NCBI RefSeq assembly: GCF_009914755.1
Contig: NC_060926.1
DNA: 64,000 nt
Origin: the human T2T-CHM13v2.0 reference genome, Homo sapiens
Reading direction: 5' to 3' (one strand)
A model generated the notes under the pieces. That model saw nothing but the letters and a program-made list of their open reading frames with translations. It had not been told where the DNA came from and made no database searches. The position numbers and the translations under genes are program-made. Positions 6,955-16,554 of this stretch are shown here, in pieces (the stretch's first letter is position 1; every line of letters starts with the position of its first letter).

Positions 6955-7737
6955 AAGCATATATAAGAAAGTACCAAAAACCAGGTGGTTTAAAACAACA
7001 GAGTTATTGTCTAACAGTTCTAGAGGCTAGAAGTCTGAAATCAAGGTTCCAACAGTGCCATGCTCTTTTTGACGGCTCCAGGAGAGGCTGCTTCTTTGTC
7101 TCTTCTGGCTTCTGGTGCTGCTGGCAACCTTTGGCATTCCTGGGCTTGTAGCTGCATTGCCCCAATCACTTGCTGTCTTAGGCCTGCATTTCTTCACACC
7201 CTCTTTCCTCAGTGCACGTCTATCTCTGTGTCTTAATTTCCTTTTTTCTAAGGACAGCAGTCATATTGATTAGGGCCCACCCTAATGATCTCATTGTAAT
7301 CTCTTAATTACCTCTGTAAAGGCCTTATATCCAAATAAGATCATATTGTGAGGCTCTGGGGATTGGGACTTCAACATAATATTTTGTTTGTTTTTGTTTT
7401 TGTTTGTTTTGAGACAAGAGTTTCACTCTTGTTGCCCAGAAAGGAGTGCAATGGCGTAATCTCAGCTCACTGTAACCTCCACCTCCTGGGTTCGAGCAAT
7501 TCTCCTGCCTCAACCTCCTGAGCAGCAGGGATTACAAGTGCGTGCCACCATGCCCGGCTGATTTTTTGTATTTTTAGTAGAGATGGGATTTCACCATGTT
7601 GGCCAGGCTGGTGCCGAACTCCTGATGTCAAGTGATCAACCCAACTCAGCCTCCCAAAGTGCTGAGATTACAGGCGTGAACCACTGGCCTCAATGCACTT
7701 TTTGAAGGGGCTCAGAAGACACTATTCAGCCCAAAAC
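6955..7737 (-). mobile_element. MLT1C-like MaLR LTR interrupted by an Alu
   Basis: ACAGTTCTAGAGGCTAGAAGTCTGAAATCAAGG, GATTAGGGCCCACCCTAATGA and GGACTTCAACAT. It resumes after the Alu and ends ATTCAGCCCAAAACA. Confidence 0.8.
7382..7690 (-). mobile_element. AluS (Sq/Sp-like)
   Basis: (TTTTG)n tail followed by GAGACAAGAGTTTCACTCTTGTTGCCCA...CCTCCCAAAGTGCTGAGATTACAGGCGTGAACCAC. Confidence 0.92.
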
Positions 7738-8159
7738 AGAAAGGAAAGGAGCTCTCCATGTGAGCTCTCCATGAGTCCACCTCAGCATAGATATTTCACC
7801 AGCCACTGCCAATCATTATTTGTTTTCATTCCACCTAAACCCAACATAATTCCAAACAACCCAGGACTAGATATCAACCTACATGGGTAGGACCTAGCAT
7901 GGGGTCTGTCCAAATTCAGTGGACCTGAATTGACTCAAGGATGCATGGTCACCAAAATGCCAATGGTTTCGATAAGCAGTTCGGGCTACTCCCAGGCACA
8001 ATTCTACTTTGTGTTTGGTCTGTTTGTTTTCTAAGAGTCATGAAGGCAAACAGCACTTGACATCTGTCAAGTTCCATTACCAGCTTGTGTCTTACCTGCT
8101 CTGATCTATTTTGAATTGAAACACAATAAAGAACCTACCTCTTAAATCCTACTGCTGGG

Positions 8160-8295
8160 TTATTCAGCCATCTATTCATTAATCTTCTTATTAATACTGA
8201 GTCATGCGCTCTACTGAGTATGCAGTGTTGAATAAGACAGGCATGTTTCCTGCCTTCATGGAGCTGAACTTGAACCAGGGACACTGACATTGAGA
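8160..8295 (-). mobile_element. L2 3' fragment
   Basis: TATTCATT...TGAATAAGACAGGCATGTTTCCTGCCTTCATGGAGCT. Confidence 0.55.
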
Positions 8296-8369
8296 AAATA
8301 AGAGTTTCCTGTTTCAAAATAAAAGGCCAGTCATCACATTTCTTAGACCGTGTGCTAAGGAAGCCTAGA

Positions 8370-8780
8370 GCTGGTAGTATCAGTGCTCTTCCCTTATCCC
8401 TCAGGCCTCCCCACTTCGGTGTGCCCTGAAGCTTCTTCCAAAGCCAAGGGAGAAAAGTGCAGTGGAATTAACACCCCCTGGAAGCCCCAGTTCTCAATCA
8501 ATGAGTAGCAGAGTTAAAGTATAAACACCTCAGCTCCCTGGCCCTGCAAGTGGCTTAACTCTGAGTTGGGATGGGGAGGGGTGGTTGTTTCCATTTCTGA
8601 GAATTTCCACACAGGACTAAGCTCCACTTACCTCACTCCTGAGAGCTAACTAGGAGAGAGCACCTTCACTGGCCTCTTCCCCTTCCCTGCTCCACTTCCC
8701 TGACCTCCATCAGTGTTTCTGCATGCACAAAAGGCTACTTGCACATAATTCCTTATCTCAGGAGACCTCAAACTTAAGAA
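8370..8780 (+). mobile_element. LTR16-like (ERVL) solo LTR
   Basis: TAACTCTGAG, GGACTAAGCTCCA, CTTCCCCTTCCCTG...CACTTCCC, CTACTTGCAC...TCCTTATCTCAGG and an end resembling AAACTAAGACA. Confidence 0.65.
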
Positions 8781-12625: not shown

Positions 12626-15285
12626 TGTCCTCCAGGGTCTCCCCACCGACAAACCTTCCCCTCTTTCCAGATTGTCTGTCAGCCCCAGCAGCAGCTTACA
12701 GGCCCAAGTCAGAGACTGGGGCTGCAGTTTTTACTCCCTTCTCTTTCTTAAACTGTACATCTACTTAATAAAAATAGTCAGCCAGTTATTTTAATCAAAT
12801 CCCCTTATTGCTATATTTTTATTTTATCAGAAGCTGAGGAAAAGAAATAGAAGCTTTCATACTTGAGGCGAACATGAATTTAAATTGCAATTTCCCCATC
12901 AGAGCTCTCTATCCTCAGGAGAGGGACCACAACAGAACCAAAACTTCCCAGTGGGGAAGGCCAGTGCTGTGAGCTGCTCAGGACAGGCATCTCCTGGGTG
13001 TGTCCCTCCTGGCAGGCGTTAGCAGTTGTCTAACAAAAACCTCCCCGTAAGCTCATGTCAAAAGGCATCTTAATCAAAAAGGTGTATATAGAAATTTTAG
13101 CTTATTTTCTTCAATTAGTTTTTTTTAAGAAAAAGAAAATACAGGTAATAATTCTTTTGTTGGTGATTATCTTATTGTCCCAACATTAATCTTGATTGTA
13201 GTCTTTCTCAGTGACTCTAATCCTCCTGGCCACTGTGCCATAAATTTTATGGTCATTTTCTATAATAAGCCACAATAAAAAAAAAGTCCATTTCTTCTGA
13301 ATGTTTACTAATTATATCCAATTAAATATATTTTATTATTTATAAAGGCATTTTAAATGACCCATATTGAAATTAACCTTTGCCATTAAGTGTCAAATTC
13401 TGTACAGAGCTAGACTATGTGATCGAGACTACACATCCTCTGACATTTCAGAGGCGGAAAGTGTCTCTTGTGGTCTGGAGGAATCAGAAAAAGATGTGAA
13501 GAAGGAAGTGGGACCGTCCCTATGCACCGGGCACAAGTCAAGAGAAGGAAGGACGGAGGACACATGGAGACCATGTGAAGAGCAGAGCTGACCCCAGGGT
13601 GAGGCCCCAACCCAAAGCCAGATCCTCTCTGGAAAGGTCAGATGTGAAAACTCAGTCCAAAGAAATTGCATGTGATCCCTTTAACCACTAACTCTTTCAC
13701 TACTCACCCCTCTGGTTTGCAAATGTTTAAAAAGAGAAGGTGCAAATTTCACTCCCCTCTTGGTCCCAAGACCATCAACAAATCTTACCCCTCATGATCT
13801 CAATTCTGTGTCTCCTCATACTGAGGCTCTGTGCCCCTCCCCATTCATACAGAGAAGCTGTGAAAGTCCTGGGTTTCCCACAAGCAGAGGCCAAAGAATG
13901 GCCAGTCCTCGCAGACAGAGCCTGCAGGCTAGGGACCTCCATGGCTCCCATCAGCCCCCAGCCCACCCAGCCTACAGAAAACAGAGCCCTTCCATGTATA
14001 TTCCCTTCTAAAGATGTTAGTGGATGTCTGGGTTCCTCTGGCTCCTAATCTTATACCACATTAGGAAAATGCTTCCCATTCAAAACACTAAAGCCCACTC
14101 TTAAAATGGAGTGATGAACAGGAACACCAAAAAGAAAGAGAGAATTTGGAGGAAAAAAAACTACTCAAAAGTAAGTTTTAAGTAAAAGATGCCCTCAAAT
14201 TTTCATACCATTTAAAAAGAGCTCATAGCGTCCATTTAGTAAGACTGAACCATTTTCATTACTAACCTATTGGAAATTGCATATGCCCTTTAATGCAAGA
14301 TTATAATAAAACCCAATCATGCAAGATTCCCAACAACAACAACAAAAAAAAGCAGCTCTCCTCAAAGCAAAGGTCGCCAGATACAAAGTAAATGCCAGAT
14401 TTTATCTAGCTGTTTGAGAACACAGTCTGCTGAGCTGATTTAAGCAAAGGCAGCTGCGTGTAGGTCATTTGTTTGTCCTGGATTTAGCCCTGAACTGAGC
14501 AGCACGAAGCAAAAAAGAGGCTGGACTCTCCTTGGCCACACGGACCTCTGCTCAGAAACAGGCCCATCTGCCCAGACTCACCTTGTCCCTTTTGTCCTCA
14601 ACTGAGTCCCTCATTGGACATATCCCCCACCCAGCACAAGACCAAATCTGCACCAACACAAGAGCCAAGTCAAAGGGACTGGCTAAATCTCCTGTAGTTC
14701 GAATAAATGCCAATAATTACAACCACATGCACTTCGTATACAGGTCCCAAATCTGAAGTCTCCTTCATCTTTTAAACCTCTGCTTGATGAGTCTTTGCAG
14801 AAAGTTCAAGTGACCTAATTTTTTCTAGAGTACCAGAAGTGATTGATGTTTATAAGGTACACCTTAGGCAATGCACAGAACAGAGATATTGGTCGACTCA
14901 TCAAAGATTAAATTATGTCCTACATAATTTTAAGTGTTATAAATATTGCAGTTAGTTGGGAATTAGTAATCCATCTAAAGTGCATATCTGTATGCGCATA
15001 GAAGACATTATTTGATAAATAATTATCGCTTAATAAGTATGTGCTAACATTATGCTTCCAGTGACAGAATGAAGCTTTAGGAAGGAAAAAAAAAGTCTCA
15101 AAATGTCAATGTAACTAAGAAAAAGATTTCAAACCTTCAGCATGGTAGTTCTCAAAGTCTGGATTCACAGCATCAGCATCATCTGAGAACTTACTGGAAA
15201 TGGAGGTTTCCATGATCCACCACAGACCTGCTGGATCAGAATCTCTGGGGATGAGGCCAGGTCTCCTGCCACCTAGCAAGCCCTC

Positions 15286-15308
15286 TGAAGGGGTGGGTTG
15301 CCCCTCCA
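15286..15308 (-). mobile_element. Terminal 23 nt of HERV-K LTR5 U5 (att site), inverted
   Basis: Reverse complement TGGAGGGGCAACCCACCCCTTCA is the LTR5B-type 3' terminus. Confidence 0.9.
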
Positions 15309-15432
15309 ATTCCATCACAGGCTTTTAAATACTCTGAGATTACATCTGAGCCTGCGGGAACCTTTCCTTTTAATGACTTAACGGCTGATTGACACTCAGG
15401 ATTGGCGTCTTCGTATGCCATCAACTCCACTA
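15303..15432 (-). pseudogene. gag: HERV-K (HML-2) gag fragment, capsid C-terminal region
   Basis: Translates VELMAYEDANPECQSAVKSLKGKVPAGSDVISEYLKACDGIGG, versus recalled HML-2 Gag VELMAYENANPECQSAIKPLKGKVPAGSDVISEYVKACDGIGG. Confidence 0.93.
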
Positions 15433-15579
15433 CGCCCATCTCCGCCACTCCGGATTCGGGGATCTGAACCCGACTCCCTTTCGATCCGCTGAGGGCAAGG
15501 GAGGCCATTGCCTGTCCCTTCGGAACGGCGCTCGCCCATCTCTCAGGACCGACTGACCCGTGTTCAACTGCTGTTTCAC
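15433..15579 (-). rRNA. 28S rRNA-derived fragment A (pseudogenic, upstream piece)
   Basis: Minus strand AACAGCAGTTGAACACGGGTCAGTCGGTCCTGAGAGATGGGCGAGCGCCGTTCCGAAGGGAC...GATCGAAAGGGAGTCGGGTTCAGATCCCCGAATCCGGAGTGGCGGAGATGGGCG matches mammalian 28S rRNA. Confidence 0.95.
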
Positions 15580-15691
15580 TGGACGCCGCCAGAACAGCGA
15601 CGCTTTCCAAGGCACGGGCCCCTCTCTCGGGGCGAACCCATTCCAGGGCACCCTGCCCTTCACAAAGAAAAGAGAACTCTCCCCGCGGCTC
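15576..15691 (-). rRNA. 28S rRNA-derived fragment B (pseudogenic, natively just downstream of A)
   Basis: Minus strand GGGGAGAGTTCTCTTTTCTTTGTGAAGGGCAGGGTGCCCTGGAATGGGTTCGCCCCGAGAGAGGGGCCCGTGCCTTGGAAAGCGTCGC...GGCGGCGTCC matches 28S rRNA. Confidence 0.95.
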
Positions 15692-15797
15692 ATTTTTCTT
15701 TCTCTACACTTTGTCTCTGTGTCTCTTTCTTTTCCAAGTCTCTCGTTCCACCTAACGAGAAACGCCCACAGGTGTGGAGGGGCAACCCACACCTTCA
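15690..15797 (+). mobile_element. HERV-K LTR5 (LTR5B-like) U5, last ~105 nt
   Basis: TTTCTTTCTCTACACTTTGTCTCTGTGTCTCTTTCTTTTCCAAGTCTCTCGTTCCACCTAACGAGAAACGCCCACAGGTGTGGAGGGGCAACCCAC.CCTTCA. Confidence 0.93.
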
Positions 15798-16554
15798 CCC
15801 TCCAGCTAATTCTGATATGGGATAATGTTGGAGAATCTCAGGACTAAAGGGAAGCCTTATTAGTGAGGAATCCTCTAAGCACGGCCTTGAAGGTCAGGTG
15901 AGATAACAGGATGCTAACAGATGAGGCCCCGAAGGGAGAAAGAGCCCAGGGGCAGAAAGCAGACGTTGTATTTGAGAACCAGCAAGAGTCTACTTTGGTT
16001 GAAATATACAATCCAAAAAGGTGAACAGCAGAAGTTGATGCTGGAAAAAAAAAAAAGATATAGCTCAGGTCATAAAAAACTATACTATATTCTGCAGGCT
16101 ATGAGATGTCAACGAGAATCTTACGAGAATCAACGGCAAGATCAAAGCTATCCATCAGCAAATATCTTTTGAAATCAGATTCACTACCACCTTATACATA
16201 ATACAAGATGACAGTGAAGTCAGGAAATTACACTGATCAGCCTTTTCTCCAAATATTCCTCTAAGGCTTTTCTACTGATAATCAAAAGATCCAAATTTAT
16301 AACTACAATATCCTTAGCATCTTAATTTTACATTTAGAAGTTCTGAACCATTTAACTGCAATAGAAAAGCTAGAAATGACATGCTGCTTTATTTCTCTTT
16401 GTAGACATTATCATTATCAGAGATGTCTCTCACTTAAGTGATGAAGACTTAAGAAAGCATCACCAGTATGAACAGATTACTTTTTTGTAATGAAAATTAA
16501 TAACCCTCTGAATTGCCTCCAGCAATAAGATTGAATGGCACAGTTAAAAGTAAT

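What the first reader, a model, noticed from the sequence alone, without database searches (positions are those of the whole stretch)
15281..15802. HERV-K 'double-U5' capture element: host 28S rRNA and a gag piece integrated between two inverted LTR5 U5 ends
Seen: a 512-bp insert (15286-15797) begins TGAAGGGGTGGGTTGCCCCTCCA and ends TGGAGGGGCAACCCACACCTTCA. These are 23-bp terminal inverted repeats (22/23), and both are the U5 tip of the HML-2 LTR5. A perfect CCCTC direct repeat flanks it, and removing the insert plus one copy restores the host MER5A. There is no poly(A) tail, no long L1-type TSD and no U3 end. Established: retroviral integrase joins ends terminating in CA-3' and makes short TSDs (HML-2 usually 6 bp, sometimes 5), and a normal provirus has one U3 end and one U5 end. 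Inference: this is neither a provirus remnant nor an L1 retrocopy. It is an aberrant cDNA with two U5 att sites, integrated by HERV-K integrase and carrying cellular RNA. That would be an L1-independent route to pseudogene formation that outwardly resembles a MITE. Repeat annotation would split it into unrelated LTR5, HERVK-int and LSU-rRNA hits and hide the architecture. I cannot confirm that it is undescribed.
Basis: partly seen in the sequence, partly recalled or inferred. Interest (0 to 1): 0.93.

Follow-up and report, generated by a model that had tools for sequence, protein, structure and literature searches.

The report
Retroviral double-U5 insert carrying ribosomal RNA
A 512-base insert in a human PID1 intron is a scrambled HERV-K reverse-transcription product, made of a capsid-gene piece and two 28S rRNA pieces between two outward-facing U5 ends, that the viral integrase apparently pasted in, and the same genome holds several other U5-ended HERV-K misproducts.

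Summary
A 512-bp insert (15286-15797) has 23-nt inverted ends (22/23) that are both the HML-2 LTR5 U5 tip, and it lies between CCCTC repeats. 17 of 18 paralogous host-repeat copies fit a single CCCTC, so the 5-bp duplication is real.

On the top strand the insert reads: antisense U5 tip (23 nt), antisense gag capsid piece (~130 nt), two antisense 28S rRNA pieces in permuted order, then sense U5 (106-118 nt). There is no U3, PBS or poly(A). Three of the four junctions carry 4-6 nt of perfect microhomology. The element is single-copy.

Best reading: a multi-template-switch HML-2 cDNA whose two ends are natural U5 termini, joined to the chromosome by HML-2 integrase.

The same genome holds three snap-back R-U5 integrants with 5-6-bp duplications, one of them replacing the 5' LTR of the 10q24.2 provirus. 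So U5/U5 DNA was integrated repeatedly.

HERV-K-mediated capture of host RNA is already in print (FAM8A1; LTR-mediated retroposition). The LTR-less double-U5 architecture and the rRNA cargo turned up in none of my seven literature searches.

Verdict: new variant of a known kind. Orthologous empty sites could not be tested.

The parts
15138..15285 (.).
   Evidence: 39 paralogous matches at 71-81% identity; the paralogues run on into the right flank.
15281..15285 (.). Left copy of the 5-bp target-site duplication CCCTC
   Evidence: 17 of 18 paralogues fit a single copy.
15286..15308 (-). Last 23 nt of LTR5 U5, inverted, with the terminal CA facing outward. This is the natural 5' start of minus-strand DNA.
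   Evidence: 23/23 to four LTR5 ends. LTR reference positions 967->945.
15303..15432 (-). HML-2 gag fragment (capsid C-terminal domain), sense on the minus strand. Bases 15303-15308 (CCTCCA) are shared with the U5 tip as microhomology.
   Evidence: PDB 6sai and 6ssj, E about 1e-24 to 1e-23.
15433..15583 (-). 28S rRNA piece A (the upstream piece in the rRNA; Rfam model about 1534-1623)
15576..15691 (-). 28S rRNA piece B (lies 50 nt downstream of A in the rDNA; Rfam model 1682-1785). It sits on the wrong side of A for a colinear cDNA. It overlaps A in TCAC.
15680..15797 (+). Sense LTR5 U5 ending in CA. It is unambiguous from 15692. Bases 15680-15691 are imperfect microhomology with 28S piece B (TCCCC perfect).
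   Evidence: LTR reference 865-967, 95%.
15798..15802 (.). Right copy of the target-site duplication CCCTC
15803..15856 (.). Right half of the interrupted host repeat

Best explanation
The insert is a fossil of a failed HML-2 (HERV-K) reverse transcription that was nevertheless integrated.

Shown by the anatomy: read 5'->3' on the top strand, four of the five segments have minus-strand (cDNA) polarity and the last is plus-sense. They are the first 23 nt of tRNA-primed minus-strand DNA, then copies of gag RNA, then 28S rRNA piece A, then 28S rRNA piece B, and finally plus-sense U5.

Inferred order of events:
1. A nascent minus strand left U5 after 23 nt and hopped onto gag RNA through CCTCCA.
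2. It hopped onto co-packaged 28S rRNA.
3. It hopped to a second place in 28S through TCAC.
4. Its 3' end (TCCCC...) paired with the G-rich stretch of a second, ordinary minus-strand strong-stop DNA, made from the other genomic RNA of the particle.
5. Each strand was then extended on the other.

This gives a short duplex whose two ends are both natural, tRNA-defined U5 termini. Integrase trimmed both ends to CA-3' and joined them to the chromosome 5 bp apart, giving the CCCTC duplication.

The element has no PBS, no promoter and no packaging region, so it could never move again. It is single-copy. It has no evident function.
For: - Exact U5 ends in CA on both sides, with no extra bases.
- A real 5-bp duplication. 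This length is usual for the group: 4 of 11 neighbouring solo LTRs have 5 bp and 7 have 6 bp.
- Polarity of the parts.
- Perfect microhomology of 6, 0, 4 and 5 nt at the four junctions, imperfectly 8/9, 3/5, 7/8 and 10/12.
- The acceptor site in U5 (LTR reference about 850-865) lies where three independent snap-back strong-stop DNAs restarted (858).
- Those three snap-back elements have U5 tips at both ends and duplications of 5, 6 and 6 bp, so U5/U5 DNA was integrated in the germ line more than once.
- The element is single-copy. No other place matches the whole 512 bases or the first 160 bases across the tip/gag junction among the 40 best candidates scored in each search.
- Cellular non-coding RNAs are packaged into retroviral particles (PMC5086612, one passage read; it names 5S rRNA, 7SL, U6, Y RNA and some tRNAs as enriched, not 28S).
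Against: - Integrase action is inferred from end structure only.
- The gag/28S junction has no perfect microhomology.
- The permuted order of the two 28S pieces needs an extra jump to a downstream site, and I cannot explain why it happened.
- One junction must use a DNA template or end joining, because strand polarity changes once. The order of events cannot be read from the product, and mirror-image models with plus-strand jumps give the same DNA.
- 28S rRNA packaging by HML-2 was not shown here.
- The orthologous empty site in other primates was not examined, because no primate genomes were held.
Confidence: 0.75

Rival explanations
1. Integrase-independent capture: a chimeric HML-2/rRNA cDNA fragment was ligated into a chromosomal double-strand break by end joining. 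The 5-bp repeat would come from filling in a staggered break.
For: Microhomology at the internal junctions fits end joining as well as template switching. One orphan U5 tip elsewhere (L099) keeps the two extra bases TC and has a 7-8-bp duplication, which suggests non-canonical insertion does occur.
Against: Both ends stop exactly at the CA that integrase exposes, with no TC left and no bases lost. The duplication has a length typical for the family. Eight other aberrant U5-ended inserts show 5- or 6-bp duplications.
Confidence: 0.1
2. Stepwise origin or later rearrangement: either a provirus or solo LTR integrated normally and was later deleted or inverted, or the rRNA and gag pieces arrived in separate insertions.
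For: None from my calls. It remains formally open because no orthologous loci could be compared.
Against: No U3 remains. Both U5 tips abut the duplicated CCCTC exactly. No internal part has its own duplication or poly(A). 28S sequence is not part of any provirus, yet it is fused to gag and U5 at microhomologies. At least four precise rearrangements would be needed.
Confidence: 0.06
3. L1-mediated chimeric retrocopy formed by template switching of the L1 reverse transcriptase.
For: L1 is the main maker of retrocopies in mammals (PMC5131818, passages). L1-made chimeras are known to me from recall only.
Against: There is no poly(A) tail and no long duplication, and the target GCCCTC/CAGC is not AT-rich. 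Both ends are viral U5 termini, which L1 has no reason to produce.
Confidence: 0.02
4. Assembly artefact or chance resemblance.
For: None.
Against: The parts are 94-97% identical to their sources, not identical to them, as expected for an old fixed insert. The reversed control pattern gave 0 hits against 353.
Confidence: 0.02

Closest known systems
LTR-mediated retroposition (Tan et al. 2016, PMC5131818), including the HERV-K capture of FAM8A1 that it cites (Jamain et al. 2001; seen only as a citation)
   Same: Host RNA is copied inside a retroviral or LTR-element particle by microsimilarity-driven template switches. The chimeric cDNA is inserted without poly(A). Several switches can occur in one product.
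   Different: Those products keep 5' and 3' LTRs around the cargo, and the paper argues that both should coexist for integration. Here there is no LTR, no U3, no R and no PBS, only two U5 ends. The cargo is rRNA, not mRNA. One segment has the opposite polarity.
[quoted passage not shown]
   Same: The 3' end of a nascent minus strand pairs with a strong-stop DNA and is extended back to the U5 tip, creating an inverted U5. In this element the acceptor site lies where three genomic HML-2 snap-backs restarted.
   Different: In the focal element the invading 3' end belongs to a different, cargo-bearing cDNA rather than to the strong-stop DNA itself. The review calls self-primed products dead ends and says they were not detected in endogenous reactions. 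Here, related products were integrated in the germ line.
Concerted integration of two U5 oligonucleotide ends by retroviral integrases in vitro (my recollection; no paper read)
   Same: Two U5 ends serve as the donor pair.
   Different: That is a test-tube substrate. This would be a natural germ-line event.
L1-made processed pseudogenes and chimeric retrogenes
   Same: Dispersed copies of cellular RNA made through reverse transcription and template switching.
   Different: There is no poly(A), no long duplication and no AT-rich target, and the ends are viral.
MITE-like DNA transposons
   Same: Short, with terminal inverted repeats and a short duplication.
   Different: The repeats are retroviral U5, the interior is gag plus rRNA, and the element is single-copy.

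Membership tests
Integrase-mediated HML-2 integration event | The inserted DNA begins TG and ends CA at the exact viral DNA termini | tested here: met
   both ends are the U5 terminus, and no TC dinucleotide is left.
Integrase-mediated HML-2 integration event | Target-site duplication of the family's length (5-6 bp) | tested here: met
   CCCTC is 5 bp and is single in 17 of 18 paralogues. Among 11 solo LTRs, 4 have 5 bp and 7 have 6 bp.
Canonical provirus or solo LTR | One U3 end and one U5 end, with complete LTR(s) | tested here: not met
   only LTR reference positions 865-967 and 945-967 are present. There is no U3, no R and no PBS.
LTR-mediated retroposition (chimeric retrocopy) | Host RNA-derived sequence fused to retroelement sequence at microsimilarities | tested here: met
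   perfect overlaps of 6, 0, 4 and 5 nt at the four junctions.
LTR-mediated retroposition (chimeric retrocopy) | Cargo flanked by 5' and 3' LTRs | tested here: not met
LTR-mediated retroposition (chimeric retrocopy) | Cargo is a spliced mRNA | tested here: not met
   The cargo is 28S rRNA.
L1-mediated retrocopy | 3' poly(A), a 7-20-bp duplication and an AT-rich nick site | tested here: not met
Snap-back (self-primed) minus-strand strong-stop DNA | Antisense U5-R running to the RNA 5' end, followed directly by its own sense copy | tested here: not met
   The focal element has 23 nt of antisense U5, then cargo. Three other loci do meet the feature.
DNA transposon / MITE family | Many copies sharing the inverted repeats and the interior | tested here: not met
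   no second copy of the tip/gag junction or of the whole element among the 40 candidates scored in each call.

The most novel reading that the evidence does not exclude
The PID1 insert is one member of an undescribed class of HML-2 integrants whose ends are U5-derived on both sides. In this one genome I found three kinds besides the focal element.

(a) Three snap-back strong-stop DNAs, one of which stands in for the 5' LTR of the 10q24.2 provirus.
(b) Two proviruses flanked by duplications whose whole 5' end is the last 23 nt of U5, plus a third of the same kind whose 3' end I did not examine.
(c) An inverted 23-nt tip closing a truncated provirus, and two inserts of 25-36 bp made of the tip alone.

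If this reading is right, these are fossils of reverse-transcription intermediates, and three things follow:
- The integrase accepted any duplex that offered the U5 tip in either orientation. In the young LTR type the tip is a 23-nt near-palindrome.
- The snap-back turning point marks the 5' end of the genomic RNA at about LTR position 822-826, which bears on the 793-versus-826 start-site question.
- Such misproducts are a minor L1-independent source of dispersed rRNA and viral fragments.
Probability: 0.45. Interest if true: 0.75.

Novelty: new variant of a known kind. Interest (0 to 1): 0.6.

Why it matters
Reverse-transcription errors are normally studied in the test tube or in single-cycle vectors. 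Here a germ-line insertion preserves one, with every junction readable.

It gives natural evidence that HML-2 integrase could join two U5 ends. It also shows that a retrovirus, not only L1, scattered a piece of rRNA in the human genome.

Routine repeat annotation would probably split such elements into unrelated LTR5, HERVK-int and rRNA hits, so the class is easy to overlook. I did not test this.

The related snap-back integrants independently mark where the viral RNA began (about LTR 822-826). HML-2 start-site studies disagree on this point: 793 is the canonical site and 826 is seen by RNA-seq (PMC4379556).

The element itself has no PBS or promoter and no sign of function. Its value is mechanistic and historical.

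Tried and rejected
I listed all 353 exact tips in four partitions instead and paired them by script.
- The pair at C3:189704634/189711953 looked like a 7.3-kb double-U5 element. It is two independent solo LTRs, each with its own 6-bp duplication.
- Of the 14 places flagged as possible orphan tips, 6 are ordinary LTRs with a point change or a 2-bp deletion. One of these, C12:122746263, I judged only from its 118-nt LTR alignment.
- Three 3-mismatch hits to the snap-back junction are at the level of the control (2 control hits) and were not pursued.
- The 23-nt tip of the focal (older) type does not fold unusually well: -4.8 kcal/mol, z -0.8. The right-hand copy is worse. So a hairpin-driven jump is not supported for this element. 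The young-type tip does fold well: -7.8 kcal/mol, z -3.0.
- Seven literature searches gave no paper describing a U5/U5 or snap-back HERV-K integrant or an rRNA capture by HERV-K. The library lacks most subscription journals, and no supplements were opened, so this is not proof of absence.
- The pair scan needs an exact 19-mer at both ends, so diverged examples are missed.
Full report
**Observation.** The window is T2T chromosome 2, inside a PID1 intron.
- One search shows CCCTC at 15281-15285 and again at 15798-15802. Between them lies a 512-bp insert with 23-nt inverted ends (22/23). This is the top inverted repeat of the region.
- The left 23 nt match the last 23 nt of four of the six fetched LTR5 copies at 23/23, and a fifth at 22/23.
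- The tip 19-mer GGGGCAACCCACNCCTWCA occurs 353 times in the genome and the reversed control 0 times.

**Anatomy (top strand).**
- 15286-15308: U5 tip, antisense.
- 15303-15432: HML-2 gag, antisense. Its minus-strand translation matches the HML-2 capsid C-terminal domain (PDB 6sai E 3.5e-24, 6ssj E 1.9e-23). Its DNA is 94-95% identical to proviral gag, with the best match a provirus at C1:159.83 Mb.
- 15433-15583: 28S rRNA piece A, antisense.
- 15576-15691: 28S rRNA piece B, antisense. Support comes from Rfam LSU_rRNA_eukarya (49.8 bits, E 1.3e-10, against a gathering score of 50) and from 96% identity to 40 listed rDNA units on contig 13.
- 15680-15797: U5, sense, 95-97% identical to LTR5 copies.
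- In the rDNA, A lies 50 nt upstream of B. A colinear cDNA would therefore read B then A, but the element reads A then B, so the two pieces are permuted.
- Against a natural 967-bp solo LTR used as a ruler, only positions 865-967 and 945-967 are present. There is no U3, no R and no PBS. There is no poly(A).

**Junctions.** I extended each parental sequence past its junction.

| Junction | Shared bases | Perfect overlap | Imperfect overlap |
|---|---|---|---|
| U5 tip / gag | CCTCCA | 6 nt | 8/9 |
| gag / 28S A | none | 0 nt | 3/5 |
| 28S A / 28S B | TCAC | 4 nt | 7/8 |
| 28S B / U5 | TCCCC | 5 nt | 10/12 |

At the gag/28S junction, 11 of 11 proviruses read TG where the element reads CG. For a random junction, an overlap of k or more bases has a probability of roughly (k+1)/4^k. 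That gives about 0.002, 0.02 and 0.006 for the three positive junctions. This is my own arithmetic and makes no correction for G+C content.

**Is the duplication real?**
- The left flank belongs to an old host repeat, with 39 paralogous matches at 71-81% identity.
- I removed the insert and one CCCTC by computation and aligned the result to 29 paralogues. 18 align across the join, and 10 of these have no indel within 12 nt of it.
- 17 of the 18 score better with one CCCTC than with two. The family reads ...AACAAGCCCTC|CAGGTGATTCTGAT....
- So the target was a single CCCTC, and the 5-bp duplication arose with the insertion.
- Five base pairs is normal for this LTR group. Of 9 independent solo LTRs closest to the element's U5, plus 2 more, 4 have 5-bp and 7 have 6-bp duplications, several with one mismatch (read by eye).

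**Copy number and age.**
- No other place in the genome matches the whole 512 bases or the first 160 bases across the tip/gag junction. Only the best 40 candidates were scored in each call.
- The two 28S pieces differ from present rDNA at 10 of 251 aligned bases, and 5 of these are CpG transitions.
- With usual primate neutral rates (recalled, not computed here) this suggests very roughly 10-40 million years. That fits the older TTCA-ending LTR5 type that both tips carry.

**Mechanism.**
- What the sequence shows directly: four segments have cDNA polarity, one has plus polarity, and both outer ends are the natural U5 terminus.
- What I infer: a tRNA-primed minus strand left U5 after 23 nt, copied part of gag RNA, then copied two parts of co-packaged 28S rRNA. 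Its 3' end (TCCCC...) then paired with the complementary G-rich stretch of an ordinary strong-stop DNA, made on the second genomic RNA. Mutual extension gave a duplex with two tRNA-defined U5 ends.
- Integrase removed the two extra bases. These are TC in proviruses, as seen next to the PBS. It then joined both CA ends 5 bp apart.
- Mirror-image models, with plus-strand jumps onto the 5' end of strong-stop DNA, give the same product, so the order of events cannot be recovered.
- At least one junction needs a DNA template or end joining.
- I cannot explain the permuted order of the 28S pieces beyond an extra jump. Piece B corresponds to a helix domain whose two ends pair in the Rfam model (positions 1682 and 1785). 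That may have helped entry and exit, but this is speculation.

**Related loci that bear on the mechanism.** Pairing all 353 exact tips gave four outward-facing pairs within 15 kb.
- The first is the focal element.
- The second (C3) is two unrelated solo LTRs.
- The other two, plus one same-strand pair, are snap-back strong-stop DNAs:
  - C10:100138019-100138271 is 253 bp: antisense LTR 964->822 followed by sense 858->964. Its duplication is AGATG.
  - C15:25927434-25927693 is 260 bp with the same core plus an extra tip-PBS piece. Its duplication is ATCTAT.
  - In the 10q24.2 provirus (C10:100703746-100711134) the 5' LTR is replaced by antisense 967->822 joined to sense 873->967, then the PBS. 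Both arms share the same small deletion. The whole provirus is flanked by CACCTG.
- The snap-back junction 24-mer occurs exactly three times in the genome. The three further hits at 3 mismatches are matched by 2 control hits.
- The restart site (858) lies where the focal element's U5 begins (about 850-865).
- In print, 10q24.2 is described only as lacking the 5' LTR (PMC2525661, passage) and as having no LTR-based age (PMC3228705, table passage).
- The turning point at LTR ruler 822-825 fits the start site at 826 reported from RNA-seq, as opposed to the canonical 793 (PMC4379556, passages). Equating the two numbering systems is my inference.

**A 23-nt module.** Two patterns asked for a tip whose upstream bases differ from the LTR. 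They flagged 14 places. Six are ordinary LTRs with small changes, and eight are orphan 23-nt tips, including the focal one. The other seven are:
- Proviruses whose entire 5' end is the sense tip followed by the PBS: C19:30156120-30165006 (duplication AGGTAT) and C8:140580372-140583481 (duplication TTTCT).
- A third such element at C2:130394690, whose 3' end I did not examine.
- The left end of the C15 snap-back.
- A truncated provirus closed on its right by an inverted tip: C12:110547733-110549238 (duplication GTATT).
- A 36-bp insert at C14:59249747-59249782 (duplication CATGG).
- A 25-bp insert at C19:38754095-38754119 that keeps TC and has a 7-8-bp duplication.

In the young LTR type the tip is a near-perfect 23-nt palindrome: 9-bp stem, -7.8 kcal/mol, z -3.0. 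Either orientation therefore offers the same terminal 8 bases. In the focal, older type the fold is unremarkable (z -0.8). There the length 23 may simply reflect where the CCTCCA/TGGAGG microhomology lies.

For the sense-tip proviruses, a later deletion between the similar LTR start and tip start cannot be excluded.

**Comparison with what is known.**
- Microsimilarity-driven template switching that captures host RNA into LTR-element cDNA is established (PMC5131818, abstract and passages). That paper cites a HERV-K capture of FAM8A1.
- Self-priming of strong-stop DNA is established in vitro for HIV-1. It is described there as a dead end that was not detected in endogenous reactions (PMC6088434, section 5.1 passages).
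- The focal element differs from both. It has no LTRs, it has two U5 ends, its cargo is rRNA, and its cargo order is permuted.
- Seven full-text searches found no description of such HERV-K integrants. Subscription journals and supplements were not covered.

**Verdict.** The claim of a new route to pseudogenes is only a variant of a known route. The double-U5 architecture, and the wider set of U5-ended misproducts, appear to be undescribed. They are of mechanistic interest, with no sign of present function.

Noticed in passing
L076:1220-1472 (G000:C10:100138019-100138271) and L078:1435-1694 (G000:C15:25927434-25927693): Two elements of about 250 bp made only of antisense U5-R followed by its own sense copy (snap-back strong-stop DNA). 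They are flanked by duplications of 5 bp (AGATG) and 6 bp (ATCTAT). The C15 copy also starts with a sense 23-nt tip plus TC plus 8-9 nt of PBS.
   Followed up: partly
L077:1595-1835 with L086:735-800 (G000:C10:100703746-100711134, the 10q24.2 provirus): The provirus described in print as lacking its 5' LTR has a snap-back R-U5 hairpin in that place. Both arms share the same small deletion. The whole provirus is flanked by a perfect 6-bp duplication, CACCTG. It therefore seems to have integrated with two U5 ends.
   Followed up: partly
L093/L094 (G000:C19:30156120-30165006), L089/L095 (G000:C8:140580372-140583481), L087/L096 (G000:C2:130394250-130394712): Proviruses whose whole 5' end is just the last 23 nt of U5, followed by TC and the PBS. 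The first two have matching duplications (AGGTAT, TTTCT). The third jumps from PBS nt 8-9 straight into what I read by eye as pol/env sequence (no tool match), and its 3' end was not examined.
   Followed up: partly
L079:734-2239 (G000:C12:110547733-110549238): A complete LTR plus 517 nt of PBS/leader, closed on the right by an inverted 23-nt U5 tip. The junction reads CCAGA, which equals the antisense of TC plus the first PBS bases. The element is flanked by a 5-bp duplication, GTATT.
   Followed up: partly
L098 (G000:C14:59249747-59249782) and L099 (G000:C19:38754095-38754119): Tiny inserts made of the 23-nt U5 tip alone. One is 36 bp (the tip plus a 13-nt repeat of its end) between CATGG copies. 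The other is 25 bp and keeps the TC dinucleotide, with a 7-8-bp duplication.
   Followed up: partly
L045:1036-1996 and 7406-8372 (G000:C3:189704635-189711971): Two full LTR5 copies in inverted, tail-out orientation 7.3 kb apart and 96.8% alike. Each has its own 6-bp duplication (GGTAGT, AGAAGA), so they are independent solo LTRs and not a double-U5 element.
   Followed up: yes
G000:C8:91808973-91810686 (not fetched): Three U5 tips on the same strand at an exact 847-bp spacing, which suggests a tandem array of LTR pieces.
   Followed up: no
window 15374-15668: The RefSeq 'silencer' feature given with the task lies wholly inside the antisense gag and 28S part of the insert. If that activity is real, it comes from captured viral and rRNA sequence.
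   Followed up: no
window 15581-15684: 28S piece B corresponds to Rfam LSU model positions 1682-1785, whose first and last positions pair with each other. The captured piece is thus one closed helix domain of the rRNA.
   Followed up: no
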